Part shown: piece after piece, positions 25,969-62,837 of the stretch
Position numbering within the stretch: position 1 is the stretch's first letter
How the letters are laid out: each line of letters opens with the position of its first letter
Origin: a candidate division WWE3 bacterium
GTDB lineage: Bacteria > Patescibacteriota > WWE3 > UBA101185 > UBA10185
NCBI GenBank assembly: GCA_016182565.1
Contig: JACPGI010000009.1
Span: 19,154-83,153 of the forward strand
DNA length: 64,000 bases
Direction: 5' to 3'
Program-made: the position numbers and the translations under genes
The notes under the pieces: model-generated
What the model was told of the DNA's origin: nothing
What the model saw: only the letters and a program-made list of their open reading frames with translations
Databases searched by the model: none

Positions 25969-27093
25969 ATGAAAGTTGTAATTGTAGTTCCTACATATAA
26001 CGAGGGTGATAATATTGGGCAACTTCTACCTATATTATTGGAAGAATTTAAACAAATCCCAAACCATAAATGTCATGTACTTGTAGTTGATGGCAATTCT
26101 ACAGATAAAACTCAGGAGATTGTTCAAAGTTTTGCAGATGAAAACCCAAATATTCATTTACTTGTTGAAACTGAGAAATCCGGTATAGGGGGAGCTTACG
26201 TGAAAGCTTTTAAAAAAGCCATGCACGAAATGGGTGCTGAGGTTGTGATGGAAATGGATGCAGATATGCAACATGACCCAAGGGATGTAAAACGATTTTT
26301 GGCGGAAATTGATAATGGTTTTGATTATGTGATAGGTTCCAGATATGTTGACGGTGGGGCAATACCACAGGAATGGGGTTTTCACCGGAAATTTCTAAGT
26401 TGGGGCGGTAGCATGTTTGCAAGAATTATGCTTGGGATGTGGAGTATTAAGGATTTTACAACTGGTTATAAAGCAACTCGAGTTAAAGGTATTTTAGATA
26501 GACTCGATTTAGATAGTGTTTTGTCTCAAGGTTTTGCTTATAAAATTGATTTTTTGTATAAGACATTTAAGCTTGGAGCAAAGATAAAAGAAATACCTAT
26601 TACCTTTGGACTTAGAGATCGAGGTGATTCTAAGATTGAAAGGACTACAGCACTCGATTCGCTAAAAGTTGTTTTAACAATCAGGTACAAAGAAAACAGC
26701 AGTTTCTTTAAATTTTTGATTACCGGGTTAATAGGCATGTTTTTTGATTTTGCCTTTGCCAATTTACTTAAATTTTCCGGTATTCGCTCAGGGTTTTCTG
26801 CAAGTCTGGCAGCACTTATTGCTATGCTTGTGACCTTTACCCTAAATAATAATTGGTCCTTTAAATCAAGTGCTATAAAGGGAGTTTCAGATATATCAAG
26901 AAATTTGGTTGTGTATATTTTTTCATCTTCGCTTCCGATAATCTTAAGATTTTTTATTGTAGAGGTACTAATCGTTTCATTTGGTGATAATTTTATGATT
27001 TATAATCTAGCTTTAATAGTCAGTATAGTCATAGGAATTGCTTGGAATTATTTTGTATATAGTAAGTTTATATGGAAAAAGACAAATGGTTGA
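25969..27093 (+). CDS. GT2 polyprenol-phosphate sugar synthase (Dpm1/Ppm1/CsbB-like) fused to a C-terminal GtrA-like 4-TM domain
   Basis: VIVVPTYNEGDNI, VLVVDGNSTDKT, DADMQHDP (DxD) and a GtrA-like hydrophobic C-terminus (FLITGLIGMFFDFAFANLL...). Confidence 0.8.
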   Translation: MKVVIVVPTYNEGDNIGQLLPILLEEFKQIPNHKCHVLVVDGNSTDKTQEIVQSFADENPNIHLLVETEKSGIGGAYVKAFKKAMHEMGAEVVMEMDADMQHDPRDVKRFLAEIDNGFDYVIGSRYVDGGAIPQEWGFHRKFLSWGGSMFARIMLGMWSIKDFTTGYKATRVKGILDRLDLDSVLSQGFAYKIDFLYKTFKLGAKIKEIPITFGLRDRGDSKIERTTALDSLKVVLTIRYKENSSFFKFLITGLIGMFFDFAFANLLKFSGIRSGFSASLAALIAMLVTFTLNNNWSFKSSAIKGVSDISRNLVVYIFSSSLPIILRFFIVEVLIVSFGDNFMIYNLALIVSIVIGIAWNYFVYSKFIWKKTNG

Positions 27094-36610: not shown

Positions 36611-37549
36611 ATGAAAAAAAATATAAAAATAATTTTCAAAATACTTGTAAGTTTACTTTTAATTTCCATTATTCTTCTTAAAGTAGATAATAGTTTAGTA
36701 ATAAAAAACCTTTCTTTAGTGGATGTTAGTTTTATTCCAGCAATTATTTTAATGTTTTTATTGAACTATTTTCTAAGCTCTTTAAGATGGAAAAAATTGA
36801 TTTTAAGTAGTAGCACTACGTCCATATCAACTGTTTATCTTACAAAACTTTATATAATAGGGTCGTTTTTTAACAACTTTATGCCAACAAGCATTGGTGG
36901 GGATGTTTACAAAGTTTATCGGTTGGGTAAAAAGATTAAAAATACTACTGAGGCATTTATCGCTACTTTTATGGAGCGTTTTACTGGTATGATTGCTTTG
37001 GTTTTAATATCCTATCTTGGCCTTATAAAGACCTTAGGTTTCTGGATTGCCCAACTTCCACCTTTTCTTTCTGTAAATTCAACCTTTCTTTTATTTTTTA
37101 AATTTCTACTTTTTGGTGGTTTTTGGATTTTTGCTGTTGCGGGATTTTTATCACTTAAAATCTTTTCTAAAAAATTTAACGTCTTACATGACATTTATGA
37201 TTCCCTTTTACGATATAAAAATAAAAAAAGAATTTTAATCGATGCAGTATTGACCTCATTTTTGGTTCAATTAGTAGCGATTTTGTCGCATTGGCTTGTT
37301 TTGAAATCTTTAGGTGTCACAGTTGAATATTCATATGCACTTTTTGTGTTTCCGATTATTTTTCTTGCTGGTTTTTTTATCCCATCAATAAATGGATTTG
37401 GAGTACAGGATGCATTATATATAAGGTTTTTTACCGAGGTTGGTGTTCCCATGGAGCTCGCGTTATCTGCATCTATAACATATCATTTTTTTAAACTTGC
37501 TGTAAGTTTATTAGGGGGTCTTTTTTATGCATTTGATAAATCTGATTAA
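36611..37549 (+). CDS. LPG_synthase_TM (UPF0104) flippase-like membrane protein
   Basis: 8 TM with the signature FMPTSIGGDVYKVYRLGK. Confidence 0.6.
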   Translation: MKKNIKIIFKILVSLLLISIILLKVDNSLVIKNLSLVDVSFIPAIILMFLLNYFLSSLRWKKLILSSSTTSISTVYLTKLYIIGSFFNNFMPTSIGGDVYKVYRLGKKIKNTTEAFIATFMERFTGMIALVLISYLGLIKTLGFWIAQLPPFLSVNSTFLLFFKFLLFGGFWIFAVAGFLSLKIFSKKFNVLHDIYDSLLRYKNKKRILIDAVLTSFLVQLVAILSHWLVLKSLGVTVEYSYALFVFPIIFLAGFFIPSINGFGVQDALYIRFFTEVGVPMELALSASITYHFFKLAVSLLGGLFYAFDKSD

Positions 37550-40803: not shown

Positions 40804-42486
40804 ATGAATTTTATTTTTGGAAAACTTAAACAATTAAAATATGAACTGGGTGTATTTTTACTTTATGTCTTTTCACGTTTACCTGCTCTTGGATTTGATA
40901 CTTTTAATACAGACGTTTGGAAATGGAAGCAAAGAATTTATGACTTTGGAAGCGGGGTTTTTAATGGTAACTTTGAGTTGACTATCCAGAAATATCATCC
41001 CGGAGTAACTTTGATGTGGATTGGCACATTTGCAGTAAAAGTTTATAACGGTTGGTCAAAACTGATTCAAGGAACGCTTCCTATAGACAACGACATAACT
41101 TTTATTTTTGAACTAAATTTCCTACAAAAGCTACTTATTGTTTGCACGACAGGAATTGTTTTAGCCTTTATCTTTCATGTTTTACGTAAAGTTTTTGGTT
41201 TAAAGTATGCCTGTATTGCAATAATTCTTGTCTCTTTAGAACCATTTTATATTTTTCTAAGTCGCGAAATTCACTTGGAAGGTTTAATGACTACTTTTAT
41301 GCTCGCATCAATTGTTTCCCTTTACTCTTTTAAAGTGTATAACACCAAATTTTACCTTGTTGTTTCAGCTTTTTTTGCCGCTTTAAGTGTACTTACTAAA
41401 TCATCTGCACTTGTACTTATTCCATTTACTGCCCTTATGATTTTTTTGATTAGTTTACTACAAGATAGATTAAGTATAAGTAGAAGAATCCAGGAGTTTG
41501 TTAAAGTTTTTTGTTTTTGGTTACTTATATTTATAGTTACCTTTTTTCTAGTGTGGCCTGCAATGTGGGTAGTGCCTATAAAAGCTTTGTCTACGGTATT
41601 TGGTGGAATTATAAATACGGGGATTGAAGATGGCCACATGCAGTTGTACTTTGGTGAACTTGTAAAGGATCCGGGTTACCTTTACTACTTTGTAGTATTT
41701 TGGTTAAGAAGTTCTTTTTATTTAATTCTTGGTTTACTTTTTCTCCCATTTATTTTTAAAAGGCTTGAAACAAAAAAACAAGAATTTGTACTTTTACTAA
41801 TAATATTTTCAATTGTTTATTTAATTGAAATGATGATCCCGGCTAAGAAATTAGACAGGTACATACTCCCGACAATGATGGCTTTAGTTTTAGTAGTAGC
41901 TTTTATGTTTGAATGGTTGATTGACTACATCTCAAGCAAAATCCGACTAGCGCTTAGAAAGAAGTCAGTTTCAAAGACCATGCAAGAAATTTTAAAAAAT
42001 GGTGGATATGTTGTATTAATCCCTGCCTTTATAGTTCCACTTATTTTATATCCAAATTTCTCCTCCTATTACAATCCACTTGCTGGTGGGCTTAAAAAAG
42101 GTATTTTCATGGTAGAACCAAAATGGACTTTTGGGCAAAGGGAACTATCAAAAGAGTTGGCAAGATTAAAAATCGAAGATAATCTTAAGGGGTTTGAAGG
42201 ATCCTCTTTAAAAAAACTTTATTATAAAGATATCCTTCGTGAAAAATTGGTTGTGGCATTTCCGATCCAATATTACTCGCAGTTGTACCCATTTGTTTAT
42301 AAACTTGATGGATGGCCAACAATTGATACTTTAAGGCAAGATGCTAAGCAGTCAAATTATTTTGTATATCCTGTTTGGGATGAAATGTCCCCGGCTTTCA
42401 AAAATTATAATTTAAAATACAGAAGCAGTGTATATCTACGAGGAGTTACAATTTATAACATTTACACAAGAGGGGAGCCAAAATAG
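40804..42486 (+). CDS. GT-C glycosyltransferase, PMT/ArnT-like, paralog 3
   Basis: SRLPALGFDTFNTDVWKWKQR...YHPGVTLMW mirrors the 37527 gene. Polytopic. Confidence 0.6.
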   Translation: MNFIFGKLKQLKYELGVFLLYVFSRLPALGFDTFNTDVWKWKQRIYDFGSGVFNGNFELTIQKYHPGVTLMWIGTFAVKVYNGWSKLIQGTLPIDNDITFIFELNFLQKLLIVCTTGIVLAFIFHVLRKVFGLKYACIAIILVSLEPFYIFLSREIHLEGLMTTFMLASIVSLYSFKVYNTKFYLVVSAFFAALSVLTKSSALVLIPFTALMIFLISLLQDRLSISRRIQEFVKVFCFWLLIFIVTFFLVWPAMWVVPIKALSTVFGGIINTGIEDGHMQLYFGELVKDPGYLYYFVVFWLRSSFYLILGLLFLPFIFKRLETKKQEFVLLLIIFSIVYLIEMMIPAKKLDRYILPTMMALVLVVAFMFEWLIDYISSKIRLALRKKSVSKTMQEILKNGGYVVLIPAFIVPLILYPNFSSYYNPLAGGLKKGIFMVEPKWTFGQRELSKELARLKIEDNLKGFEGSSLKKLYYKDILREKLVVAFPIQYYSQLYPFVYKLDGWPTIDTLRQDAKQSNYFVYPVWDEMSPAFKNYNLKYRSSVYLRGVTIYNIYTRGEPK

Positions 42487-50991: not shown

Positions 50992-52035
50992 ATGGAAAAT
51001 GATTTAATTTTAACAATAGGAATACCATCATACAGCCGAAAAGAATCCCTTGATGCTCTTTTGGGACAATTAAGCCAAGAAAAGGCTGAGGGTTTTGTAG
51101 TTCTTGTATCAGAAGACAACTCACCTGAGGATATATCATCTGTTGTTAAAAAGTATGATGGTAAGATTAAAAATCTTATTTATAGCAAAAATCCTCAAAA
51201 CCTAGGATATAGTGGAAATGTTTTTAGACTTTATGAACTTACGAAAACAAGATATCTGTGGTTTTTGTGTAATGACGATTCTATAAATCCAGGTGCAGTG
51301 GGAGAAGTAATAAAAAAACTTAGAGAACTAGAACCAGTTGTTGCTGTATTTAACACAACCTGGATAGACTCGTATGGTAGAAAACGTATAGCAGGACCTA
51401 AAGAAACTATAATTCATGATAATTTTAATACATTTACAAATTATGATGCATTGATGCGCCTTACATTTGTTTCAATTGTTGTACTTGAAAAAAGACTTCC
51501 TCTAGAGCAAATAAAATACACTGATTATAAAGATAATGTATTTGTTCAAATTACAATTGCCTTGCAGCTCCTAAGCGATAGATTTAGATTTATAGAAATA
51601 CCAAGTATAGTGTTACATCGTAATGTTGGTTATAAATATGGAGATTTTTTGAAATTTTACTTGGCAGATGAGTTGAAAGCAATCCATATTTTAAAACATA
51701 AGTTTGATACCAAAAGATTTAAAGCGTGGTTTATAAAGAGATTGCCAAGTGCCGCATTGTTATTTCTTTCTCAAAAAATTGGACTTTTTAATTACACAAA
51801 TAAACCAACGAGAAAAAATTTACAATTTATCTTTGAGTACTACGGTGTATACAGCATTCTAATTTTTCTATTTTACTTAATTTCTTTTCTTATACCGGCT
51901 TTTGTGCTAAAAATTGTATATTATTTAATTCTGGTTAGTATTCACGGTCCTAAAAAAGCTAGAGAAGTTTATTTAGCAAATATAGATCGTGCCTTTACTG
52001 ATAAGAGAAAAACAGGATTTATTTCTTATAGATAA
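50992..52035 (+). CDS. GT2-like glycosyltransferase with C-terminal TM helices
   Basis: LTIGIPSYSRKESL...VSEDNSPED N-terminal GT-A signature. Hydrophobic C-terminus. Confidence 0.55.
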   Translation: MENDLILTIGIPSYSRKESLDALLGQLSQEKAEGFVVLVSEDNSPEDISSVVKKYDGKIKNLIYSKNPQNLGYSGNVFRLYELTKTRYLWFLCNDDSINPGAVGEVIKKLRELEPVVAVFNTTWIDSYGRKRIAGPKETIIHDNFNTFTNYDALMRLTFVSIVVLEKRLPLEQIKYTDYKDNVFVQITIALQLLSDRFRFIEIPSIVLHRNVGYKYGDFLKFYLADELKAIHILKHKFDTKRFKAWFIKRLPSAALLFLSQKIGLFNYTNKPTRKNLQFIFEYYGVYSILIFLFYLISFLIPAFVLKIVYYLILVSIHGPKKAREVYLANIDRAFTDKRKTGFISYR

Positions 52036-52040
52036 CAAAT

Positions 52041-52766
52041 ATGAATAATTTTTTAACCAGTTTGGTTAGTATGTTTAAGTACAAGACTAAGGTTGCAAAA
52101 GATTTTGCGATAATGCAGCTTTCACCTGAAGTAAAACAGGATATTATCAATAACTTTCACAAGCTATATTATGACTCAAGTGTCTTTGGTGGTACATGGA
52201 GAAGTACTTCCTTTTTAGGCATCCCAATTCAAAAGGCACCTATGGAGATGTATATGTATCAGGAAATTCTGTTTGATACAAAACCAGATCTTATAATCGA
52301 AACAGGTATTGCCTATGGAGGTGGTGCACTCTACCTTGCTTCCATCTGTGAACTTATGAATCATGGTAATGTTGTGTCTATTGATATTAGCGATACAGGA
52401 AATCTCCCAAAGCATAGCAGGCTTAAATATTTGTTTGGTTCATCAGTTTCTAATGAAATATTAGACCAGCTGAAAAAAGAAATTATAGGTAAAAAAAGAG
52501 TTATGGTCATATTAGACTCAGACCACAGTAAAAAGCATGTACTTGAAGAACTTAAGTTGTACTGTGATTTTGTAACTGCTGGAAATTATTTAATTGTCGA
52601 AGATACCAATGTAAATGGTCATCCAGTACAGCCAGACCATGGTCCGGGCCCTATGGAAGCATTAGAAGAATTTCTTGCCTTAAATAAAGATTTTGAAAGT
52701 GATAAAAGTAAGGAGCGTCTTTATCTAACCTTCAACCCCAAAGGTTATCTTAAACGATTAGGTTAA
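52041..52766 (+). CDS. CmcI / cephalosporin-hydroxylase-family methyltransferase (sugar O-methyltransferase type)
   Basis: WRSTSFLGIPIQKAPMEMYMYQEILFDTKPDLIIETGIAYGGGALYLAS resembles the CmcI family (PF04989) signature. Confidence 0.6.
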   Translation: MNNFLTSLVSMFKYKTKVAKDFAIMQLSPEVKQDIINNFHKLYYDSSVFGGTWRSTSFLGIPIQKAPMEMYMYQEILFDTKPDLIIETGIAYGGGALYLASICELMNHGNVVSIDISDTGNLPKHSRLKYLFGSSVSNEILDQLKKEIIGKKRVMVILDSDHSKKHVLEELKLYCDFVTAGNYLIVEDTNVNGHPVQPDHGPGPMEALEEFLALNKDFESDKSKERLYLTFNPKGYLKRLG

Positions 52767-52769
52767 TAA

Positions 52770-54887
52770 ATGAAGTATAAACTTGCTTTTCTTATATTTG
52801 CAATTCTTTTAACTGTAAATATATTTTCACATGTCCCAAAGGATTCTTTTTTATTTCTACATGATGAGTATCTGATACTTTCTGATCAAGAAGATTTCAA
52901 ACAGTTTTTTACAAGAAATCCAAATAATTTCGGTATAGCAAATACCACAGTTATGCTCGTTACTTTTTTTGACAGGCTTTACTATTCCCTAACTTTCTTT
53001 TTAAACATTAGCACCTTGCATGCTCAAATGGTTTTGTACTTTCTAAAATTTTTGCTTCTAATGTATTTGCCTTTTGTTGGGTTTAGTTTAATAAATAAGT
53101 TGTTTAAAGATGAAACAAGAGTAGGTGATTTTGAAGTTTTTGTTATTTCATTATGGTATAGCTTTAATACTTACACTCTAATATTTTTGCACGGTAATGC
53201 TTTTGCTTTAACACTTCTTTTAGCTTATGTCTTAGCTCCACTTTCCTTTTATTACTTTCATAGATCTGTTTTTGAAGGAGATATTTTATCTAAACTGAAA
53301 TTTATATTTACTTTGTTTCTGATGTTTTTTTCATTATATGTATTTGCAGTTTTTGTGATGCTACTTACTATTTATGTTTTCTTATATGCGTTTGCAAAAA
53401 AAATTACTTTTGGAAAAGTTATGGGAAACTTACTTAGCTTGGCAATATTGTTTTTACCGCTTCTTAGCATGTTTATTTTAATACCGTATGAGTTATTTGT
53501 GAATTTTAATATTACAACAAATCTAAGCGGGGGTGAGACGTACAACATGTTAAAGGGAGGACTTTTATACCAATTACTTATGTGGTTTTCATGGGGAATT
53601 TATACTTTTTGGAGTCCAAGAAACATCTTCACTTTTAGTCAGTATTTTAGAACTTTCCCATCCTTAGTTGCACCATTTATTTTATACGGAATCGTAATTT
53701 ATGGAGCAATAAAGAAAAAAACAACCATATTAATTCCAATATTCTTATTCTTATTCTTATTTTTTATCTTCTTTTCAAAAGGCGCCCAATCCCCCTTTGG
53801 TGAGATTTACAAATATTTAGTTGAAAATAACTTTTTATTTAGACTTTTTAGATCACCAGATAACAAGTTTGGATTTGGTGTTATTTTTTCTATGGCGTGT
53901 TTATTAATTTTTGTAGCAAGTAGTGTAAAAAAATCTGTTTTTATACCCCTTATTATATTTGTAATTGCTATACAGGGATTTTTGATATTTAACGGTGTTG
54001 CAGTTATTGGTGAAAATAAAAAAACCTCCACAGATAGAATTATTTCTTTATCCACAGAACAACAGAACCTAATTAGTTTTATAAACAAATCCAATCTAAC
54101 CTATGGTTATATTTTGGCACTTCCAACAACAGATTTTGGCCACTTTGAGGTGGGTAGTAATGATTTACACATTGGTCAGGACCTATTGCCAAAATTTTTA
54201 AAACTTCCCTTTATTCACTTAGCTGACAATACAGGCATGTCTAGCAAACTATATAAGAATTTATCGGGCCTTATCAAAAATGAGGATATAACTGTACTTG
54301 CTAACTCCCCAATAAGATACATCTTATTAAGATATGACGTAAAACGTGCGGATGTCTCTAAATCACTTATCCGGGAGCTTAAGGAAAACTTTAAACCTAT
54401 TTATACAACTAAAATGTATGAGTTGTACGAAAATACTTTAGCCGTTCCGATTATAGAGGTGTCAAACTCTTCAATTTCTTATGATTATCCAGTCAAGCAC
54501 AAAATTACCCTTAAAAATGTTTCAGATCCTTTGGACCTTAATTTTTATGAGGGCTTTAACAGAGATTGGTATATTTTCCCAATTAAAAGAAGTAAAGAAG
54601 TCAACCTAGATGCAAATATTTTTGATGTTAAGTATTTATGGCAAAAACCAGCTTTTGCTGATTCTCACGTTTTATTAAATAATTACGGTAATAAGTGGAA
54701 AATTTCTAGTAATGAAATTAGGTCTTTGGGGAATGAATTTTTTATTCAAAACGCTGATGGCACAATTGATTTTGATGCGGTTATTTATTTTAAAACACAG
54801 GCAATATTTTATCTTGGCATAATATTATCTGGGTTTTATCTATTGTTAGTTGGAATTTATGCACTTTACATCATCAAAAAAAGATAA
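52770..54887 (+). CDS. Uncharacterised polytopic membrane protein, paralog A (YfhO/GT-C-like topology: N-terminal TM bundle, large extracytoplasmic domain, C-terminal TM anchor)
   Basis: More than 10 TM. Conserved loop FSKGAQSPFGEIYKYL. C-terminal about 300-aa soluble region and a final TM (FYLGIILSGFYLLLVGIYALYII). Confidence 0.5.
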   Translation: MKYKLAFLIFAILLTVNIFSHVPKDSFLFLHDEYLILSDQEDFKQFFTRNPNNFGIANTTVMLVTFFDRLYYSLTFFLNISTLHAQMVLYFLKFLLLMYLPFVGFSLINKLFKDETRVGDFEVFVISLWYSFNTYTLIFLHGNAFALTLLLAYVLAPLSFYYFHRSVFEGDILSKLKFIFTLFLMFFSLYVFAVFVMLLTIYVFLYAFAKKITFGKVMGNLLSLAILFLPLLSMFILIPYELFVNFNITTNLSGGETYNMLKGGLLYQLLMWFSWGIYTFWSPRNIFTFSQYFRTFPSLVAPFILYGIVIYGAIKKKTTILIPIFLFLFLFFIFFSKGAQSPFGEIYKYLVENNFLFRLFRSPDNKFGFGVIFSMACLLIFVASSVKKSVFIPLIIFVIAIQGFLIFNGVAVIGENKKTSTDRIISLSTEQQNLISFINKSNLTYGYILALPTTDFGHFEVGSNDLHIGQDLLPKFLKLPFIHLADNTGMSSKLYKNLSGLIKNEDITVLANSPIRYILLRYDVKRADVSKSLIRELKENFKPIYTTKMYELYENTLAVPIIEVSNSSISYDYPVKHKITLKNVSDPLDLNFYEGFNRDWYIFPIKRSKEVNLDANIFDVKYLWQKPAFADSHVLLNNYGNKWKISSNEIRSLGNEFFIQNADGTIDFDAVIYFKTQAIFYLGIILSGFYLLLVGIYALYIIKKR
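53741..53760 (+). repeat. Hexanucleotide microsatellite (TTCTTA)x3 inside the CDS, encoding FLFLFL
   Basis: atTCTTATTCTTATTCTTATTtttt read directly. Confidence 0.5.
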
Positions 54888-57123
54888 CTATTTAGGTTAT
54901 ATTCTATTGTTCTTTTTTATTTCTCTAGTGTTAACGGCCATATTTTTTTATGGCTTAAAAAGCAACGAATTTTTAATGATCGGTGATCAGTATTTCTTAT
55001 TTAATTTCAAGGAGTTGGCGTGGTCGAGTTTTTACATAAAAAAATTAGATAATTTAGGAATACACAATAGCTGGCAGTTTTTAACCCAGTTTTGGGATGT
55101 CATTTTTTTGATGACACTTTATAAGTTGGGCTTAAGTTTTTTTGTTATTGAAAAGTTACAATTTTTCTTTGCTTTATTTATCACACTATCAATTTCATTT
55201 GTTGGATTCTTGCATATCGGTAACGATTTTTCATCAACTTCCAAGGCAAGCAAATTAAAAATTCTTTTTATCACTTTTTGGTATAGTTTTAATCCTTATA
55301 CTGTATCTCTTTGGCACGGCGGGGTGTATGACATTGGTGCGGCAATAACTTATTCACTAGCTCCACTGATCTTTTATTTTGTTAAAAAGAATCTTTTTGC
55401 CCCAGTTAGTGTAGAAAAGCTTGGAAAATTGGCACTTATGCTTTTTGTATCTTCTTATGTTTTTTGGTTGTTTGCACCCTTAGTGTTTTTACTTGTTTTA
55501 TATTTGCTTTTAAGTTTCTTTCTAGAGAAAAAGCCGGATTTAAAAAAAAGCACTGAATTTGTACTAATACTATCAAACAGTGTTGTATTAGCTTTTATGT
55601 ATATCCCAATGCTAAGTTTTATTATTTTTAATTTAGCATTCCAGTATTTTGACCAGGAAGGTCTGCTTAGCCTATTTTCAGTTCCGACCTACGGGAATCA
55701 GCAAGGGGGTATGTGGTATCAATTTTTGATGCTATTTTCATGGGGCATATACACTGAGTGGACACCTAGAACTATATATTCATTTCATAAATATTACCTT
55801 TCTATTTATTACAAACTTTCTACCCTCGCTGTTTATTTTATTATTTTGTATGGGGTTGTAAAAAAGTTAATTAAACAAGTTAGTTCTTTTAGCACCTCAA
55901 TAGTTTTTTTATTACTCTTATTTGTATTAATATTTTTTTCAAAGGCTGCCCAACCCCCTCTTGGGGAAATTTTTACCTATCTGTACACCACCGTACCTCT
56001 ATTTGGAATTTTTAGAACTGCTGACATCCGATTTGGATTTGCTATTGTTCTAACTGTTGCATTGTTTCTTACTTATATTTCAGAAAATTTGAGTAAAAGG
56101 GTTATTAGTCTTGTTTTTGTAGTTATTATGCTTGGGCAAAGTTGGTTTTTCTTTACAGGTAGAGCAATAAAGGGGGAAGAAATACCGGGAAAATACTTTG
56201 ACCGTATTATAAATATAACTAAGCCCTATGAAGAACTAATATCATTTTTAAACACAGATGCTTTGGAATCAGGTTACGTTTTTCCTATTCCTGGTATGGA
56301 TTATGGTTACTTTATTTTAGATAGTAAAGAAGAGGAGCATTATATTGGACAAGGATTACTTCCCAAATTAGTTACAAGGCCATTTCTTTCTACTGTTGAG
56401 TCTGGTGGTATGTTAACAAGAACCTTGGAATATTTGAACAAAATCACACTTGACAAAACATACGTCAACTTAAAAAAGTTTCCAATAAAATATATTCTGG
56501 TAAGAAAGGATTTAGGATGTAGTCATAATGCTTGCAAGGATTATAACTTAGAAGATCTAGATAAAATCTACAAATTAGTCTTTAAAAATGAATTATTTTA
56601 CCTATATCAAATACCAAATCATTTGCCAGTTTTAAGTGCAAAAAATCTCACATTCAAAATGCTTAGTCCTATAAAATACGAACTATATTTAACAAATTTA
56701 GTCACTACAACTCAGTTGAATTTTGCACAAAGTTTCAGTAAACATTGGAAACTGTATGTAAATCCTATTAAAAATATAGATTGTAGCAGTGATTTAGTCC
56801 CATATAGTGGGGTTTTAGAATGTGTGGGAGATGTTCGGGCACTTAACTTATCAGATATTACATATCTTTTTTCTAAGCCTGTATTTACATCAACACATGT
56901 AGAAAGTGTCTCATTTGCAAATACTTGGGGCATTAACCCAGACTACATTACCGCAAATCTTTCGGAGAATTTTTATAGTATAAATACAGATGGTAGTGTT
57001 AACATAAGACTAACATTGTTCTTTTTCCCACAGGCACAATTTCTGCTCGCATTGGTACTTACACTACTTTCGGTTTTATTTGTAGTTACACTAACTATAG
57101 TTAAACGCACACCGAGTAATTAA
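54850..57123 (+). CDS. Uncharacterised polytopic membrane protein, paralog B of 52770..54887
   Basis: Colinear conserved blocks (FSKAAQPPLGEIFTYL, WYSFNPYT versus WYSFNTYT, FSWGIYT in both). Same topology with a C-terminal TM. Confidence 0.5.
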   Translation: MEFMHFTSSKKDNYLGYILLFFFISLVLTAIFFYGLKSNEFLMIGDQYFLFNFKELAWSSFYIKKLDNLGIHNSWQFLTQFWDVIFLMTLYKLGLSFFVIEKLQFFFALFITLSISFVGFLHIGNDFSSTSKASKLKILFITFWYSFNPYTVSLWHGGVYDIGAAITYSLAPLIFYFVKKNLFAPVSVEKLGKLALMLFVSSYVFWLFAPLVFLLVLYLLLSFFLEKKPDLKKSTEFVLILSNSVVLAFMYIPMLSFIIFNLAFQYFDQEGLLSLFSVPTYGNQQGGMWYQFLMLFSWGIYTEWTPRTIYSFHKYYLSIYYKLSTLAVYFIILYGVVKKLIKQVSSFSTSIVFLLLLFVLIFFSKAAQPPLGEIFTYLYTTVPLFGIFRTADIRFGFAIVLTVALFLTYISENLSKRVISLVFVVIMLGQSWFFFTGRAIKGEEIPGKYFDRIINITKPYEELISFLNTDALESGYVFPIPGMDYGYFILDSKEEEHYIGQGLLPKLVTRPFLSTVESGGMLTRTLEYLNKITLDKTYVNLKKFPIKYILVRKDLGCSHNACKDYNLEDLDKIYKLVFKNELFYLYQIPNHLPVLSAKNLTFKMLSPIKYELYLTNLVTTTQLNFAQSFSKHWKLYVNPIKNIDCSSDLVPYSGVLECVGDVRALNLSDITYLFSKPVFTSTHVESVSFANTWGINPDYITANLSENFYSINTDGSVNIRLTLFFFPQAQFLLALVLTLLSVLFVVTLTIVKRTPSN

Positions 57124-57139
57124 TCTATATAATAGTTTT

Positions 57140-58822
57140 ATGCATTGGCTAATCTATTCGTACAATGATATGGCAGCAATATTTGTGGGGGGTTTGGAAG
57201 TTTTACTTTCCAAAGATTTTTTTCCAACAATAGCAACAAGCTCGCAGCCTAGTTCAATAGATTTTTTAAGTAACTTTATAAACCTAATACTTTTTAAAGC
57301 TTTTTACCCTGTAACTGTAGCAAATATTTTAATGATTCTTTACTTTGCTTTAGCATTTATATTTTCGTTTATCCTATTTAAAAACTTGGTTTCAAATAGG
57401 TTATTAGCTTTAGTTTTTGCTTTGTTTTATGGAGTTAGCAACCACTTTTTGTATCGGATAATTTCTTTTACCCCAAATATTTATCAGACTTTCTTCTTTC
57501 CACTTACATTTTTCTTGCTATTAAGGAAGACAAAACCAATATTTTTGAGTTTTCTTACTGTATTTTTCTTTACTTTTAGTAGTTATTACGCTTATTTTGT
57601 TTTTATTTGTATTGTGCTTTGGTACTGTTTTGATGAATTATTTAGTTTAGTCTCGTTAAAACAAAAATTTATAACTTCTATAAAAAATATTGCAATATTT
57701 TCTATTGGCACAATCTTAGGTGTATTTCTGATTTACACACCAGTCATTATTCAATCTCTTCCAACTTTTAAAAATGTAAATACCAATAATGTGACAAAAG
57801 AAGTTCAGGTTATGGAAAAAACGTATCGCCCTATTGAGGATTTTTATAATTTAAGTCTTCGACCGTGGTACTTTTTTATTCCACCACAAAAATCTTTATA
57901 TTTTGCGGAATTATCAAAAGATTTATATAAAAAAATAGCAAGTTCCAATTATTATTTAGCAGATGATTACACAGAAGATGAGATGGGTGGTGTGTATCTG
58001 GGGTGGCATTTTTTGCTTGGTGCTGCTTTTGTTTTAGCCATTGCAGGTCTCTCTTTTGGAAAAAAGCCTAAACCTAAGATAACAGAATACTTTGGTAATA
58101 TTGTTGCAAATAGAAAGTTGATAATTAAACTAACGCTTATTACACTTGCTATCTTAGCTATTAGTCTTCCACCATCTTTTACTATATCAAATATTACATT
58201 TTACACCCCGTCCTACATCATCTACTTAATACTTCCAGTCTTTCGCACCACTGTAAGGTGGGCTATTGTTATTTACCTTGTTGTACTTATATTAAATTTA
58301 TTTTTGATGGTAGATTTATATAATTTAATTCGTTTAAGAGTAACAAAATTTATTTTTGTAATCTCATTATTAGTTGTAACTTTTGTTGTTCTTTCAGTTA
58401 AACTACCATTTATAGATACTAGCACCCCACCAGAAGACATCGCATTTTTAAATACTGTTTCATCTAAAGATTTTTCCTATGCTGTTTATCCAAAAGGGGA
58501 TTACCATTCCATATTTTGGATCTTAAATCATAAGAAAAAACTTTTAAATCCAGTCAATTTTATAAATAGAACTACTGGATTTAAATCAAATGAATTTTCA
58601 GATAATTTAGTAACAGAGAAAGGTGTTAATAAGTTGAAAGAATTAGGGGGGCAGTATCTTGTTTTAAAAAAGGAGGAGATTTCGGAAAATAAGTTAAAGA
58701 ATATAAACATAATTAACCCCTTTATAACTTCTATAAGTTCATTGGAAAGTTTTTTTGAAAGATTTGGGACTAAAGTGTTTGACTCGCAGCACACAGCAAT
58801 TTACTACCTTAACTCCCTATAA
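57140..58822 (+). CDS. Uncharacterised polytopic membrane protein (560 aa)
   Basis: Hydrophobic helices throughout. No motif I recognise. Confidence 0.45.
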   Translation: MHWLIYSYNDMAAIFVGGLEVLLSKDFFPTIATSSQPSSIDFLSNFINLILFKAFYPVTVANILMILYFALAFIFSFILFKNLVSNRLLALVFALFYGVSNHFLYRIISFTPNIYQTFFFPLTFFLLLRKTKPIFLSFLTVFFFTFSSYYAYFVFICIVLWYCFDELFSLVSLKQKFITSIKNIAIFSIGTILGVFLIYTPVIIQSLPTFKNVNTNNVTKEVQVMEKTYRPIEDFYNLSLRPWYFFIPPQKSLYFAELSKDLYKKIASSNYYLADDYTEDEMGGVYLGWHFLLGAAFVLAIAGLSFGKKPKPKITEYFGNIVANRKLIIKLTLITLAILAISLPPSFTISNITFYTPSYIIYLILPVFRTTVRWAIVIYLVVLILNLFLMVDLYNLIRLRVTKFIFVISLLVVTFVVLSVKLPFIDTSTPPEDIAFLNTVSSKDFSYAVYPKGDYHSIFWILNHKKKLLNPVNFINRTTGFKSNEFSDNLVTEKGVNKLKELGGQYLVLKKEEISENKLKNINIINPFITSISSLESFFERFGTKVFDSQHTAIYYLNSL

Positions 58823-58843: not shown

Positions 58844-59203
58844 ATGGGTACCGCAGTCTTTATAATATTAACATTGAATTTTTTTATAATCTTATTTCCA
58901 CTTAGGTTAAAATCTGTTTTTGTTGTTTCAAACTTAGTAATTTTACTCCTTTTATATAAACTTGTTGGAGTAGATTTTATTATGAATTTTCTTATTCTTT
59001 TAGTACTATCTTGGTCGATACTGATCTTGTCTAGTTTAAGCAGAATTCAGATATATAGTGTCGGTGGTTTTTTCATATTGCTAGCTGGTGTTTTTATGGT
59101 ATTTGAAATTGAGGCACCAGCTAGGATTTTTGTCTCCATGGGTATCGCACTACTGATGTATTCAATTTTTAAAGATATCATATATGCAAAGATTAATGAT
59201 TAA
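58844..59203 (+). CDS. Small 4-TM membrane protein
   Basis: 119 aa, almost entirely hydrophobic. Confidence 0.4.
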   Translation: MGTAVFIILTLNFFIILFPLRLKSVFVVSNLVILLLLYKLVGVDFIMNFLILLVLSWSILILSSLSRIQIYSVGGFFILLAGVFMVFEIEAPARIFVSMGIALLMYSIFKDIIYAKIND

Positions 59204-61325
59204 GTTAACCTATTCTCTGCTTTTTATTATTTTTTTTAGTACACTTTTCGTTGGTGTTTGCTCTGCTAGATCAAAAATCGAACATTACCAATATATGTTT
59301 TTAACTTGGGGTTTTAGAGCGGATGTGTTAAATACTACGGTTGTCGAAGACACTAAACTTTTATCAAACGATGTTAAAGTAAAGCCAAAACATCTTATAC
59401 TCCTTTCTTCCCAATACAACGATTTGATACGGGGTACCGAGCAAGAAGCAAAATATAACAGTTTTACAAGCATAGTTCTTATATGCGATGAGAGGTTGTT
59501 ATTAGATAAGGTTTTAATCTGTGATAGGGATAGTGTATTCCCAGCTATAAGTACCTTAAACGTTTTAGAAGTATCACAAGATGTAAAAATATTACATGGG
59601 GATTTTAATACCAAAACTTTTCTTGTAGTGCCTGAAACTACACTTACAATACCTTTCAAACAATCACCCCTTTCTATATACATAAGTGCTTTCACAAAAA
59701 ATACAGATGTTAAATTTGATAAATCAAGTATATTTATAAAAGCTTTTCAAGGGTTAACTGAGACTGCGGCCTTGGAATTCACGGTGTTTTGTTTAATTTT
59801 GTCTTTTCTTACTTTTATTCTAGCAAACATTTTTTTAAAAAATGACTTTAAGGTAGATTTGAGAACTTTCCTAAATTCAGCAAAAAATCTTTTATATGTA
59901 ATTCAGAAATTTCTTGAAAATTACAAATGGATGTCTATATATCTATTTCTAATACTTTTATTTATCTATATTCCTGTAATCACAACGATTTCTTATCGAG
60001 ACGTTTCTGGTTTTGATATTAATTACATTTTAAGTTATATAATCGATAACTTAGATCCAAAGAAGGGCGTTATGTATATAGGTAGTGCAAGTACGGCAAG
60101 ACTTGCTTTGGTAGTTTACAACTATCTTATATTCGCAGTTCTTACTTTAATATTATTACCTTTTGGTATTTCTTATTTAAAGGCTGCTTCACTTAAAATT
60201 TTAGATTTAGAGGTTGATTCAAGACTTTCTAAATTTATGATACCAACCATATCGTTTGTAAGTATACTTTGTTTATTAGCATTACCAGTTAAATATGCTT
60301 ATTTATTTTTAAGTGTGTTGGGACTTTATCAAGTATTTTTTTATTTAAAAAGAAAACCCATTTCATTATATTATACGAATAAACAAAAGGTATTTTTAGT
60401 TGTTGGATACATTGCTTTTATAATTTTTGGTAAAGTTATACAAGCCCCCCTAGAGACATTTTTAAGTAAAAGTTCATCTAAGTTACTGTTTCCACTTGAA
60501 GATCGTATTGTATTTTTGCCATTTATTAAACCAAACGATGGGGGTGTTATTTTTGAAGATTTCTATGTCAGTAAAGAGGTTTCTGTAATGGTTGATGAAT
60601 ACGGAATAAATTACCCCGGATATAAAAAAATTGTAAACACCAGTATGCAGAATTTCGATAAGGATAAAAGTTATCTGATATCTGGTGGTAATATTGGTGA
60701 CTTTCTTACCTATGCCTCAGAGAATAAAAATCTTCTTGATACTTTAACTTCCAAAGACTATACCAATGTTTTTTATATTCAAAACGCGCCTATTGGGCCA
60801 AATTCAAAAATGAGTTTGGAATTCACACTTGATTGTGCGTTGGATGCTCCATTCTATAATATAAAGCTAAAAGCCAGGGATTTTGTAAGGCCTGCTCAGA
60901 CAATTATAGAAAAATCAGAGATTCTTGATTTCCCCGGGTGTTATTTGGGAGACAAGGAAGTTATATATAATGCACCATTAAACCCGAAGTATATTGCAGA
61001 CAGTGCGTTTTTTGAAATTATTCAGGAAGGACTGCCAATTAAAAATGTAAGATTAATACTTGATAATAAAAGTATTCCTGTGAAGTTTCTTAATTATGGT
61101 GAAAAAAATAAAATCTATGCCATTGGGACAAAACCTAATTTTGATACATTATACATTTATTCTTCCAACATAGATTCTGATTGGGTTAGTAAGTTAGACA
61201 CATCTGGAAACTCATATAATATCTCTAGCTTAATTAATGATTTAAAAACTAAAGATTTACTTGAAAATCCATTTGTAATCTGGCCAACACATGATCAAAA
61301 AGCCATATTAAAAAATGATTTATGA
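59184..61325 (+). CDS. Uncharacterised membrane protein: signal peptide, about 180-aa extracytoplasmic domain, central 8-10 TM bundle, about 280-aa C-terminal soluble domain
   Basis: Hydrophobicity pattern read from the translation. No motif I recognise. Confidence 0.45.
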   Translation: MQRLMIKLTYSLLFIIFFSTLFVGVCSARSKIEHYQYMFLTWGFRADVLNTTVVEDTKLLSNDVKVKPKHLILLSSQYNDLIRGTEQEAKYNSFTSIVLICDERLLLDKVLICDRDSVFPAISTLNVLEVSQDVKILHGDFNTKTFLVVPETTLTIPFKQSPLSIYISAFTKNTDVKFDKSSIFIKAFQGLTETAALEFTVFCLILSFLTFILANIFLKNDFKVDLRTFLNSAKNLLYVIQKFLENYKWMSIYLFLILLFIYIPVITTISYRDVSGFDINYILSYIIDNLDPKKGVMYIGSASTARLALVVYNYLIFAVLTLILLPFGISYLKAASLKILDLEVDSRLSKFMIPTISFVSILCLLALPVKYAYLFLSVLGLYQVFFYLKRKPISLYYTNKQKVFLVVGYIAFIIFGKVIQAPLETFLSKSSSKLLFPLEDRIVFLPFIKPNDGGVIFEDFYVSKEVSVMVDEYGINYPGYKKIVNTSMQNFDKDKSYLISGGNIGDFLTYASENKNLLDTLTSKDYTNVFYIQNAPIGPNSKMSLEFTLDCALDAPFYNIKLKARDFVRPAQTIIEKSEILDFPGCYLGDKEVIYNAPLNPKYIADSAFFEIIQEGLPIKNVRLILDNKSIPVKFLNYGEKNKIYAIGTKPNFDTLYIYSSNIDSDWVSKLDTSGNSYNISSLINDLKTKDLLENPFVIWPTHDQKAILKNDL

Positions 61326-61403: not shown

Positions 61404-62837
61404 ATGCAAAAGCAATCAATTTTTTACAAACCGATTTTTATTTTTCTTTTAGCATTTTGTGTATTTTTTATAAGTTGGCTAGTGATTTATAAAATGGGAG
61501 TCAACACACTGGCTATTCAATCCGAAGATACTATACCGGCACTTTTTTTGCCTATTGAGATTTTAAAAACAAAATCCCTTTATTTGGATAAATACTATCC
61601 TATGATGATAGAAAGATATCCTCAACCAGACGATAAAAAACAAGAGCGAGGGTTAACTCCGTTTTATTTAAAAAAAGTGGGAATACATTACCTTTCAGCA
61701 TTTCCGATAATAACCCCACTTTTATCTCTTCCGGTGTATATAATACCCGTTTATTTTAATCTCCCTGTAACATGGGACAATTTAATTTTACTTGGGCATA
61801 TTTCCGGAGCTTTTATTGTTGCGCTTTCGGGTGTGATCTTTTTTTCAATAACTACAAAACATCTTCAACTGGAAAATAAAAAAGCATACATACTTACAAG
61901 CATTTATCTTTTTGGAACTATAAATTTTTCTCTTTTGTCTCAAGCAATGTGGCAACATGGCGCAGTTGAGTTATTCTCTCTTTTGGCAATTTATCTACTT
62001 TTTGAAAAAAGATGGCTTCTAATGGCTTTTTCTTTAGGTTTTGCAGTATTGGCAAGACCAACTGCCGGTTTAATAATTCCCTTTTTAGGTCTTTTAGTGG
62101 TACAGATATCTCTTAATGATATTTTTGCAAGGACATACGAAACTAATGCCAAAAAATATTTAGATATTTTGAAAACAATTTTTAACATTGGTTTTAAATT
62201 TGTTTTAGGAATATTTTTACCTTTTGCATTTTTCTTTTGGTATACCGAAAAGTTTTATTTAGGTGTGTCAAACAATGGCTATGCGACTCAATTTTTGTCA
62301 AGCTGGCTTTCACCTTTCCCCCAAGGTTGGCTTGGTATGTGGTTATCTCCGAGTAAAGGCATACTAATATATTCACCGGTTATAGTTTTTGCGTTAGTTG
62401 GTTTATGGCTTGTATTAAGGCTTGGCAATTGGCGAAAAGCCGAGAATTTTAAATATATAGTTTTTGGTTGCATATTTCTGGTTCACACTTTGGTTTTAAG
62501 TATTTGGAAGCATTGGTATGGGGGTTGGGGATTTGGTTATAGGATGGCGTCAGATACCATTCCATTTATGATTTTCTGTATTGCACCATTTTTAAATTCT
62601 TCATTTTACGAAAAGAGTAAGGCATGTAAAAAAGTATTTTGGATTACAGTTGTTTTTTCCATTTTAGTACAGATTTTTGGAATTATTTTTTTTGATGGAA
62701 TATGGCATGCCGCTTACGATAGGGGATTTAGAGACACTGCTTGGTTATGGAGTATACAAGATTCCGAATTTGTATTTAACATTAGACGAATTTTAGTTAA
62801 ATTTGGGTTTTTGGTGAAAGCTTGTCCTCAGTGTTAA
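61404..62837 (+). CDS. GT-C-like polytopic membrane glycosyltransferase (DUF2029/GT87-like), ending in CPQC
   Basis: FSLGFAVLARPTAGLIIPFLGLLVV and multiple TM helices. C-terminal VKACPQC. Confidence 0.5.
   Translation: MQKQSIFYKPIFIFLLAFCVFFISWLVIYKMGVNTLAIQSEDTIPALFLPIEILKTKSLYLDKYYPMMIERYPQPDDKKQERGLTPFYLKKVGIHYLSAFPIITPLLSLPVYIIPVYFNLPVTWDNLILLGHISGAFIVALSGVIFFSITTKHLQLENKKAYILTSIYLFGTINFSLLSQAMWQHGAVELFSLLAIYLLFEKRWLLMAFSLGFAVLARPTAGLIIPFLGLLVVQISLNDIFARTYETNAKKYLDILKTIFNIGFKFVLGIFLPFAFFFWYTEKFYLGVSNNGYATQFLSSWLSPFPQGWLGMWLSPSKGILIYSPVIVFALVGLWLVLRLGNWRKAENFKYIVFGCIFLVHTLVLSIWKHWYGGWGFGYRMASDTIPFMIFCIAPFLNSSFYEKSKACKKVFWITVVFSILVQIFGIIFFDGIWHAAYDRGFRDTAWLWSIQDSEFVFNIRRILVKFGFLVKACPQC

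What the first reader, a model, noticed from the sequence alone, without database searches (positions are those of the whole stretch)
52770..57123. Tandem paralogous 700-760-aa polytopic membrane proteins of an unrecognised family
Both proteins share the same architecture. It starts with about 10 N-terminal TM helices and a conserved extracytoplasmic loop (FSK[GA]AQ[SP]P[FL]GEI..YL). More TM helices follow, then a roughly 300-aa C-terminal soluble domain and a final single TM anchor. Short identical blocks recur (WYSFN.YT, FSWGIYT). The topology is reminiscent of YfhO/AftD-type GT-C polymerising transferases, but I cannot match a known signature. They may be a lineage-specific family of glycan polymerases or ligases and are the most novel-looking proteins in the island. 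A (TTCTTA)3 hexamer repeat lies inside paralog A (53741-53760).
Basis: partly seen in the sequence, partly recalled or inferred. Interest (0 to 1): 0.55.

Follow-up and report, generated by a model that had tools for sequence, protein, structure and literature searches.

The report
Paired minimal AftD-like GT-C glycosyltransferases
The two unannotated membrane proteins are real, anciently duplicated, stripped-down relatives of the mycobacterial cell-wall enzyme AftD (a GT-C glycosyltransferase), sitting in a large surface-sugar gene island of a tiny Patescibacteria (WWE3) bacterium; this explains them, and it is useful rather than revolutionary.

Summary
**Observation: confirmed.** ORF A (52770-54887, 705 aa) and ORF B (54859/54850-57123, 754/757 aa) are paralogues: 29% identity over about 725 aa, E = 1e-90. 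The quoted motifs are all present. Neither protein hits Pfam or NCBIfam.

**Identity: GT-C glycosyltransferases closest to AftD.**
- The AF2 model of A is confident (pLDDT 90).
- Profiles widened with distant relatives hit AftD by sequence (E = 8e-12, colinear over the whole GT-C module).
- 11 of 47 distant relatives hit PF11847.

**Architecture: a minimal AftD.** It has 11 TM helices, an external α/β plus β domain and one TM anchor. It lacks AftD's three CBMs and its ACP-binding helix bundle.

**Active site.** AftD's functional positions have conserved counterparts, all on the outer face: D32, W275, R361, K366 and Q470-D471.

**Context.**
- A-type and B-type are distinct clades with different residues near the active site.
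- Both sit in a conserved Patescibacteria block: methyltransferase, GT2, CmcI, A, B, M560.
- M560 is a third GT-C enzyme that Pfam cannot see.
- A DPMS-type polyprenyl-phosphate sugar synthase lies at the start of the island.

**Likely function:** extracytoplasmic transfer of sugars from lipid-phosphate donors onto a surface glycan. The sugar and the acceptor are unknown.

**Verdict:** a new member of a known kind, of moderate interest.

The parts
52770..54887 (+). Gene A (HYV31_04070), 705 aa: A-type minimal AftD-like GT-C glycosyltransferase
54859..57123 (+). Gene B (HYV31_04075, MBI2414982.1), 754 aa from the ATG at 54859 (757 aa if from the TTG at 54850): B-type paralogue of A
   Evidence: BLASTP A vs B E = 1e-90. 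P0067 is 754 aa and 100% identical. The ATG overlaps the end of A by 29 nt.
52770..53990 (+). A residues 1-407: 11-TM GT-C membrane module, N-terminus cytoplasmic
   Evidence: AF2 helices. K/R-rich short loops alternate with uncharged short loops. Colinear HMM alignment to AftD chain 24-542.
52863..52865 (+). Codon for D32 in external loop 1, just after TM1: candidate catalytic Asp (DE in the A-type clade, DQ in the B-type clade)
   Evidence: Conserved in 62/63 A-type, 23/25 B-type and 50/55 distant members. Falls within 2 residues of the essential AftD D41 in the HMM alignment.
53586..53606 (+). FSWGIYT motif (A 273-279) in external loop 4; W275 is invariant
   Evidence: W275 is conserved 63/63 and 25/25. 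It aligns with AftD W272, which is 100% conserved in AftD.
53778..53867 (+). External loop 5 and the start of TM10 (A 337-366): KGAQSPFGEI...FRSPDNK.
   Evidence: K337, Q340, P342, G344, R361, D364 and K/R366 are conserved in both clades. R361 aligns with AftD R357 and K366 with the essential AftD K361.
53991..54791 (+). A residues 408-674: external soluble domain, an α/β part (about 429-540) followed by a β-rich part (about 542-674)
54174..54182 (+). G469-Q470-D471 motif in the soluble domain
   Evidence: Conserved in the A-type, B-type and distant groups. Q470-D471 align with AftD D474-E475 in two independent HMM alignments. D474 is essential in AftD.
54792..54872 (+). A residues 675-701: single C-terminal TM anchor, the counterpart of AftD TM12, followed by a cytoplasmic KKR tail
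   Evidence: AF2 helix 675-704. Topology from loop charges.
53740..53761 (+). Hexamer tandem repeat (TTC TTA)3 encoding Phe-Leu repeats in TM9; incidental
   Evidence: TRF: period 6, 3.7 copies. Sequence. Not conserved in orthologues.
56353..56355 (+). B codon 499 (GGA, Gly), at the position where 24 of 25 B-type proteins have Asp (equivalent to A D471)
50992..52035 (+). GT2 glycosyltransferase (347 aa) with a hydrophobic C-terminus; always immediately upstream of the A-type gene, with or without CmcI between them
   Evidence: PF00535 E = 2.9e-13. Syntenic in 11 of 13 fetched loci, intact in 10.
52041..52766 (+). CmcI / rhamnosyl O-methyltransferase-family methyltransferase (241 aa)
   Evidence: PF04989 E = 1.8e-60. 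Lies between the GT2 and A in 5 of 13 fetched loci and in the P0015 contig; a sixth locus (L012) carries it elsewhere on the opposite strand.
57140..58822 (+). M560 (HYV31_04080), 560 aa: a third GT-C-fold enzyme of the conserved block, with no Pfam or NCBIfam hit
25969..27093 (+). GT2 fused to a GtrA/DPMS transmembrane domain: a polyprenyl-phosphate sugar synthase type, and the candidate supplier of lipid-linked donor for the island's GT-C enzymes
   Evidence: PF00535 E = 1e-28 plus PF04138 E = 3e-13.

Best explanation
A and B are two anciently diverged paralogues of a Patescibacteria subfamily of GT-C-fold glycosyltransferases. Their closest characterised relative is mycobacterial AftD (Pfam PF11847, formerly DUF3367).

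**Architecture (shown).** Each protein is a 'minimal AftD'. It has an 11-TM membrane module with the N-terminus inside the cell. An external α/β domain and a β-rich domain follow, then one C-terminal TM anchor.

**Mechanism (inferred from the GT-C family).** A polyprenyl-phosphate-linked sugar is made on the cytoplasmic face. The candidate synthase is the DPMS-type GT2 at 25969-27093. The donor is flipped and binds in the groove of the membrane module. The sugar is then transferred, with inversion, to a growing surface glycan on the outer face of the membrane. The active site would be formed by the following residues:
- D32 in external loop 1
- the W275 loop (external loop 4)
- the K337...R361/K366 loop (external loop 5)
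- Q470-D471 in the soluble domain

**Two paralogues (inferred).** A-type and B-type carry different conserved residues near this site: E33, K93 and E256 in A-type, against Q, a hydrophobic residue and P in B-type. They probably add different sugars or make different linkages. They would act in sequence with M560 and the island's other GT-C enzymes. The adjacent methyltransferases would decorate the product.

**Unknown.** The identity of the sugar and of the acceptor.
For: **Fold**
- The AF2 model has pLDDT 90 and pTM 0.90.
- Foldseek's top three hits are AftD entries: E = 7.5e-9, query-normalised TM-score 0.53, 643 columns.

**Sequence homology**
- The family profile finds 5356 representatives at E <= 1e-3.
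- Profiles that include distant representatives hit AftD chains 6w98/6wbx at E = 4.6e-9.
- A second such profile hits at E = 8.3e-12, in one colinear stretch (profile 15-536 to chain 24-542).
- 11 of 47 members of the broad alignment hit PF11847, best E = 3.2e-31. P0137 hits at E = 3.6e-6.

**Active-site equivalences** (AftD-essential residues K39, D41, E251, K361 and D474 from bioRxiv 10.1101/2019.12.22.885152)
- K366 aligns with K361, and R361 with R357.
- W275 aligns with W272.
- Q470-D471 align with D474-E475.
- D32 lies within 2 residues of D41.
- All these positions are conserved across the clades and lie on the outer face by topology.

**Context**
- A single-strand glycan island spans about 25.9-62.8 kb. 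It holds:
  - a DPMS-type GT2;
  - a UDP-Glc/GDP-Man dehydrogenase family enzyme;
  - GT4 and GT2 enzymes;
  - three Wzx-like flippases;
  - DUF2079 and two PMT-like GT-C enzymes;
  - several methyltransferases.
- The block MTase, GT2, (CmcI), A, B, M560 recurs in WWE3, Saccharibacteria and unclassified Patescibacteria loci; Levybacteria and Roizmanbacteria loci keep only part of it.
- M560 is also GT-C.
Against: - Neither A nor B reaches any Pfam or NCBIfam model directly.
- The close-family profile alone finds nothing in the PDB.
- The residue equivalences come from HMM alignments at 11-13% identity, not from a coordinate superposition. D32 versus D41 is off by 2-3 positions, and the acidic residue of the GQD motif aligns with E475 rather than the essential D474.
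- The E251 counterpart (E256) is absent from the B-type clade.
- The window's own B has Gly at the D471-equivalent position.
- No donor, acceptor or activity has been measured for any member.
- The link to the DPMS-type GT2 is by island membership only; the two genes are 26 kb apart.
- The adjacent GT2(347) resembles generic GT2 enzymes, not GtrB or DPMS.
Confidence: 0.8

Rival explanations
1. A and B are en bloc transferases that move a preassembled oligosaccharide from a polyprenyl-diphosphate carrier onto protein or polymer. This covers an oligosaccharyltransferase-like, polymerase-like or ligase-like role, and is the first reader's 'polymerase/ligase' idea.
For: - The island has three Wzx-type flippases, which move polyprenyl-PP-linked oligosaccharides.
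Against: - AftD is the only sequence-level match.
- The WWDxG motif that defines oligosaccharyltransferases is absent in 0 of 143 members.
- No Wzy or WaaL family hit was found.
Confidence: 0.08
2. A and B work as an obligate hetero-oligomer, like Pmt1-Pmt2 or EmbA-EmbB. B would be a catalytically weakened or regulatory subunit rather than an independent enzyme.
For: - A-type and B-type genes are adjacent, and often overlap, in most loci.
- Both clades are retained across several Patescibacteria lineages.
- B-type lacks the acidic residues E33 and E256 of A-type.
- The window's B has D-to-G at the GQD motif.
Against: - B-type keeps D32, W275, K337, R361, K/R366 and D471 at 23/25 or more, which implies selection for catalysis.
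- L004 (Roizmanbacteria) has A without B within 10 kb. L011 has B without an intact A on the 12.9 kb fetched, which starts at the B gene. L012 has the two genes 7 kb apart.
- No complex prediction was possible with these tools.
Confidence: 0.1
3. They are YfhO-like enzymes. These decorate an existing teichoic-acid-like or other wall polymer with single sugars from C55-P-sugar, in a three-part GtrB/GtrA/GT-C system.
For: - The general logic is the same: a polyprenyl-P-sugar synthase of the GT2-GtrA/DPMS type lies in the island.
- The proteins are GT-C-type membrane enzymes with an external domain.
Against: - PF09586 (YfhO) is not among the 25 most-matched of the 29 Pfam families matched by the 47 members at E <= 10.
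- AftD is the specific homologue.
- Mechanistically this is a sub-case of the best explanation rather than a true alternative.
Confidence: 0.05

Closest known systems
AftD, alpha-(1->3)-arabinofuranosyltransferase of mycobacteria (PDB 6W98/6WBX/6WBY; Pfam PF11847 GT-C_AftD, formerly DUF3367)
   Same: - 11-TM GT-C module followed by an external α/β domain, a β domain, and re-entry into the membrane through a single TM.
- Detectable sequence homology through intermediates (E = 8e-12).
- The long conserved external loop 5 between TM9 and TM10, which the AftD authors describe as unique to AftD among GT-C structures.
- Conserved counterparts of W272, R357, K361 and D474/E475, and an Asp near D41.
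   Different: - Half the size: 705-757 aa against about 1400 aa.
- No room for the three carbohydrate-binding modules.
- No TM13-16 bundle, and so no ACP-binding site.
- 11-13% identity, and below Pfam's threshold for PF11847.
- Occurs as a conserved A-type/B-type pair.
- The host is a Patescibacterium, with no sign of decaprenyl-phospho-arabinose genes in the window. The sugar is probably not arabinofuranose.
AftA and other mycobacterial GT-C arabinosyltransferases (PDB 8IF8; AftB 9DLH)
   Different: No sequence-level match. Different soluble domain and TM count.
Protein O-mannosyltransferases (Pmt1/2/4) and ALG mannosyltransferases; ArnT
   Different: No PMT or MIR domains. No Pfam PMT hit for A or B.
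Oligosaccharyltransferases STT3 / AglB / PglB
   Different: The WWDxG motif is absent from all 143 family members. Scores are lower than for AftD.

Membership tests
GT-C fold glycosyltransferase superfamily | Polytopic N-terminal membrane module with the GT-C helix arrangement, matched by structure comparison | tested here: met
   [not shown]
GT-C fold glycosyltransferase superfamily | Conserved acidic residue in the first external loop after TM1 | tested here: met
   D32 is conserved in 62/63 A-type, 23/25 B-type and 50/55 distant members. It lies in the 62-residue external loop after TM1.
GT-C fold glycosyltransferase superfamily | Use of a polyprenyl-phosphate-linked sugar donor on the extracytoplasmic face | not testable with these tools
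   Only indirect evidence: a DPMS-type GT2 (PF00535 + PF04138) at 25969-27093 in the same island.
Pfam PF11847 (GT-C_AftD / DUF3367) | Score above Pfam's gathering threshold (26 bits) | tested here: not met
   A has no Pfam hit at E <= 10. B has none to PF11847 at E <= 1; its only hit is a spurious one to PF14976.
Pfam PF11847 (GT-C_AftD / DUF3367) | Homology to family members shown by profile or intermediate sequences | tested here: met
   11 of 47 relatives found with the A/B profile hit PF11847, best E = 3.2e-31. Profiles A2 and A3 hit AftD chains at E = 4.6e-9 and 8.3e-12.
AftD proper (alpha-1,3-arabinofuranosyltransferase) | Large periplasmic region with three carbohydrate-binding modules | tested here: not met
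   The external region is only 267 aa, an α/β part plus one β-rich part. AftD's soluble part is about 60% of a 1400-aa protein.
AftD proper (alpha-1,3-arabinofuranosyltransferase) | C-terminal TM13-16 bundle that binds acyl carrier protein | tested here: not met
   There is a single C-terminal TM (675-701) followed by a 4-residue tail.
AftD proper (alpha-1,3-arabinofuranosyltransferase) | Essential active-site residues K39, D41, E251, K361 and D474 | tested here: inconclusive
   K361 aligns with K366, which is K in all 63 A-type and R in all 25 B-type members. D474/E475 align with Q470/D471. D41 lies within 2 residues of D32. E251 is near E256 in A-type only and is Pro in B-type. No clear K39 counterpart was found. 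These are HMM alignments, not a coordinate superposition.
AftD proper (alpha-1,3-arabinofuranosyltransferase) | Decaprenyl-phospho-arabinose donor and arabinan acceptor | not testable with these tools
   No UbiA-type or DprE-type genes were seen among the annotated genes of the window. The rest of the genome was not available.
YfhO (PF09586) | Match to the Pfam model | tested here: not met
   PF09586 is not among the 25 most-matched of the 29 families matched by the 47 members at E <= 10. A and B have no hit to it.
Oligosaccharyltransferase (STT3/AglB/PglB) | WWDxG motif in the external domain | tested here: not met
   Present in 0 of 143 family members.

The most novel reading that the evidence does not exclude
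A-type, B-type and M560, perhaps with the unassigned membrane proteins M713 and X477, form a dedicated extracytoplasmic assembly line specific to Patescibacteria. A and B would act as a coupled pair, comparable to Pmt1-Pmt2 or EmbA-EmbB. The line would build a methylated surface glycopolymer of a type not yet described, possibly one important for the epibiotic lifestyle of these ultrasmall bacteria.
Probability: 0.15. Interest if true: 0.6.

Novelty: new member of a known kind. Interest (0 to 1): 0.35.

Why it matters
- **Biology.** The cell envelopes and surface glycans of Patescibacteria (CPR) are almost uncharacterised, yet they are central to how these bacteria attach to hosts.
- **Annotation.** At least three consecutive 'hypothetical' membrane proteins in a widely conserved CPR gene block are GT-C glycosyltransferases that current family libraries miss. 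This gives the block a concrete annotation. It also shows that the AftD/DUF3367 family reaches well beyond the Actinobacteria, in a stripped-down core form.
- **Testable targets.** The conserved residues D32, K366 and D471 are candidates for mutagenesis. The work could be done in Saccharibacteria if a genetically tractable strain carries the block.
- **Limit.** This does not change what is known about how GT-C enzymes work.

Tried and rejected
- **Direct family scans.** Pfam and NCBIfam scans of A and B gave nothing usable.
- **Close-family profile (A1) against PDB sequences.** It gave only a spurious E = 1.4 hit to a soluble glucosyltransferase. The link to AftD appeared only after distant representatives were added.
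- **hhalign of the A/B profile against M560 and M713.** No relationship: probability 3.5% and 0.1%.
- **Rosetta-stone idea.** P0111 is a GT2 fused to a family member.
  - Its GT2 part does not match an HMM of the adjacent GT2(347) orthologues at all, while three of the four control GT2s from the window do.
  - BLAST gives only 27% identity over 103 aa.
  - The fusion therefore supports a general role in glycan synthesis only. It does not support a specific GT2(347)-A partnership.
- **GT2(347) as a polyprenyl-P-sugar synthase.** Its nearest solved sequences are chondroitin synthase, GalT1 and PglI, not GtrB or DPMS. The idea is left open.
- **AFDB.** The Foldseek afdb50 library was not available.
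- **Names for distant cluster members.** None carry a name.
- **Literature.** Searches for DUF3367, for AftD in CPR, and for GT-C in Patescibacteria found nothing relevant.
- **Clustering.** Coarse average-linkage clustering did not split A-type from B-type at k <= 8. They are closer to each other (30% mean identity) than to the distant group (23%). The split rests on reciprocal BLAST scores, clade-specific residues and synteny.
- **M560 family.** Pfam gave no hit for any of its 43 members.

Full report
**1. The observation**

The window is from a candidate division WWE3 (Patescibacteria) genome. Protein A is 100% identical to HYV31_04070 and protein B to HYV31_04075 / MBI2414982.1.

The deposited B is 754 aa, so its start is probably the ATG at 54859. 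That ATG overlaps the 3' end of A by 29 nt.

The two proteins are clear paralogues: 29% identity and 51% positives over 725 columns, E = 1e-90. Every quoted motif is present in both.

The hexamer repeat is real (TRF 53740-53761, period 6, 3.7 copies). It is simply (TTC TTA)3 encoding Phe-Leu repeats in a TM helix, and orthologues do not conserve it.

Neither protein hits Pfam or NCBIfam at E <= 1. All close database relatives are unnamed and have no Pfam domain.

**2. What the proteins are**

An alignment of 49 family members (A1) gave a confident AlphaFold2 model of A: mean pLDDT 90, pTM 0.90.

- Ranks 2 to 19 are all GT-C-fold proteins. They include AftA (17.0), Pmt4 (15.4), ALG12 (15.4), STT3B (14.6), AglB (14.5), ArnT (12.9), PglB (11.8) and AftB (9.9).
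- Foldseek agrees. Its top three hits are AftD entries (best E = 7.5e-9, query-normalised TM-score 0.53, 643 columns), followed by STT3 and PglB.

The relationship is also visible in sequence, but only through intermediates.

- The close-family profile finds nothing in the PDB.
- An exhaustive profile search finds 5356 cluster representatives at E <= 1e-3, of which 418 are at E <= 1e-30.
- Profiles that include the more distant representatives hit the AftD chains 6w98/6wbx at E = 4.6e-9 (A2).
- A second such profile hits at E = 8.3e-12 (A3). That match is a single colinear stretch covering profile 15-536 and chain 24-542, which is the whole GT-C module.
- 11 of the 47 members of the broad alignment hit Pfam PF11847 (GT-C_AftD, formerly DUF3367), best E = 3.2e-31.

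A and B are therefore distant homologues of the AftD family that fall below its Pfam threshold.

**3. Anatomy**

AF2 helices combined with the positive-inside rule give an N-in topology.

- There are 11 TM helices. Short K/R-bearing cytoplasmic loops alternate with short uncharged external loops.
- There are three long external loops: EL1 (20-81), EL4 (244-295) and EL5 (337-362).
- A 267-residue external domain follows (408-674): an α/β part and then a β-rich part.
- A single C-terminal TM (675-701) and a cytoplasmic KKR tail complete the protein.

This matches the N-terminal two-fifths and the TM12 of AftD as described by Tan et al. (bioRxiv 10.1101/2019.12.22.885152). AftD has 11 GT-C TM helices, an α/β soluble GT-C domain, three CBMs and a β-sandwich, TM12, and a TM13-16 bundle that binds ACP. 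A and B lack the CBMs and the TM13-16 bundle. They are 'minimal AftD' proteins.

The AftD authors singled out this loop as peculiar to AftD among GT-C structures.

**4. Active site**

AftD chain numbering in the PDB sequence equals native numbering + 3. I checked this against W272, E251, D351, K361 and D474. The HMM alignments give these equivalences:

| Protein A | AftD (native) | Note on the AftD residue |
|---|---|---|
| W275 (FSWGIYT) | W272 | 100% conserved in AftD |
| P342 | P340 | |
| R361 | R357 | |
| K366 | K361 | essential |
| P452 | P460 | |
| Q470-D471 | D474-E475 | D474 essential |
| D32 | within 2-3 residues of D41 | D41 essential |

Across 63 A-type, 25 B-type and 55 more distant representatives these positions are highly conserved. 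By topology they are all external.

These are alignment-based inferences at 11-13% identity, not a coordinate superposition. I treat the shared active-site layout as likely, not proven.

**5. Two clades and conserved synteny**

Reciprocal BLAST splits full-length relatives into A-type and B-type. Mean identity is 39% within A-type, 38% within B-type and 30% between them.

Clade-specific residues lie near the predicted active site. A-type has E33, K93 and E256. B-type has Q, a hydrophobic residue and P at those positions, plus its own invariant W203 and C554.

In fetched loci the same block recurs: methyltransferase(s), GT2 (about 347 aa), CmcI-family methyltransferase (sometimes absent), A-type, B-type, M560, and further on X477.

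- The full A, B, M560 run is seen in WWE3 and Saccharibacteria loci; the unclassified Patescibacteria loci L001 and L002 carry the run as far as B.
- A Levybacteria locus (L012) has both clades 7 kb apart.
- A Roizmanbacteria locus (L004) has A only.

The duplication therefore predates the divergence of these lineages, and both copies are generally maintained. A-B adjacency holds in most loci but not all.

**6. The island and the proposed mechanism**

Genes from about 25.9 to 62.8 kb all lie on the + strand and are dominated by glycan biosynthesis:

- a GT2 fused to a GtrA/DPMS TM domain (25969-27093), the architecture of polyprenyl-phosphate sugar synthases
- a UDP-Glc/GDP-Man dehydrogenase family enzyme
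- several GT4 and GT2 enzymes
- three Wzx-like flippases
- an LPG_synthase_TM protein
- DUF2079 and two PMT-like GT-C enzymes
- several SAM methyltransferases and a CmcI/rhamnosyl-O-methyltransferase homologue

The first 25 kb are housekeeping genes.

The best-supported reading is as follows. A and B are extracytoplasmic, polyprenyl-phosphate-sugar-dependent glycosyltransferases. They add different residues or linkages to a surface glycan, working alongside M560 and the island's other GT-C enzymes. The methyltransferases decorate the product.

The fold and the homology are shown. The donor class is inferred from the GT-C family and from the DPMS-type gene. The sugar and the acceptor are unknown. 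No decaprenyl-phospho-arabinose pathway genes were seen in the window, so arabinofuranose is not implied.

**7. Rivals**

- **Oligosaccharyltransferase, polymerase or ligase-type en bloc transfer.** This is disfavoured. WWDxG is absent from all 143 members, AftD and AftA score higher than the OSTs, and there is no Wzy or WaaL signal.
- **YfhO membership.** Not supported.
- **A coupled A-B hetero-oligomer with a weakened B.** This remains possible. For it: gene overlap, B's loss of E33 and E256, and the Gly at the D471-equivalent position in this genome's B. Against it: B-type conserves most active-site positions, and A occurs without B in some loci.

**8. Novelty and verdict**

No paper in the searchable library describes AftD-like or DUF3367 proteins in Patescibacteria. 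The AftD structure paper reports homologues only within the Actinobacteria.

Even so, the fold, the probable chemistry and the genomic role are those of a well-known enzyme class. I file this as a new, divergent, architecturally minimal member of a known kind.

The 'polymerase/ligase' and 'most novel in the island' parts are not supported. Interest is moderate. The value lies in annotating a widely conserved CPR envelope-glycan module and in providing testable catalytic residues.

Noticed in passing
[not shown]
   Followed up: yes
window 56353-56355: The window's B protein has Gly499 (GGA) in the GQD motif, where 24 of 25 B-type proteins have Asp. In A this position (D471) aligns with AftD E475, next to the essential D474. 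It could be a real loss-of-function variant or an assembly or sequencing variant.
   Followed up: partly
window 58844-59203, 59184-61325, 61404-62837, 37527-39245: Four more proteins (119, 713, 477 and 572 aa) have no Pfam hit; the first two were also scanned against NCBIfam, with no hit. A 713-aa-type gene recurs downstream of M560 in several related loci, and a 477-aa-type gene in Saccharibacteria loci. The 713-aa protein is not detectably related to the A/B family by hhalign.
   Followed up: partly
window 25969-27093: A GT2 fused to a GtrA/DPMS transmembrane domain (PF00535 + PF04138) marks the start of the roughly 37-kb single-strand glycan island. It is the candidate maker of the lipid-phosphate sugar donor for the island's six or more GT-C enzymes.
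   Followed up: partly
window 32868-35090 and 39211-42486: The same island holds a DUF2079 membrane protein and two tandem PMT-like GT-C proteins (530 and 560 aa). With A, B and M560 the island carries an unusually high density of GT-C-type enzymes for a small genome.
   Followed up: no
P0111 (1101 aa) and P0079 (1075 aa), metagenomic relatives: P0111 has a GT2 domain fused to the N-terminus of a family member. P0079 has an extra polytopic membrane region of about 350 aa at its C-terminus. The GT2 of P0111 is not an orthologue of the window's adjacent GT2.
   Followed up: partly
L009 (CAWGHS010000021.1, 277490-299637): This 460-kb contig is labelled 'uncultured beta proteobacterium'. It carries the Patescibacteria-type methyltransferase-GT2 pair, then an A-type gene about 8 kb downstream, and two short B-type fragments on the opposite strand between them. 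Its GC content is 46%, against 32-40% in the other loci. It may be a mislabelled bin or a transfer event.
   Followed up: no
L003 8286-9294: In the WWE3 GW2011_GWB1_41_6 locus the GT2(347) orthologue is split into two ORFs (184 and 168 aa). This suggests a frameshift or a pseudogene.
   Followed up: no
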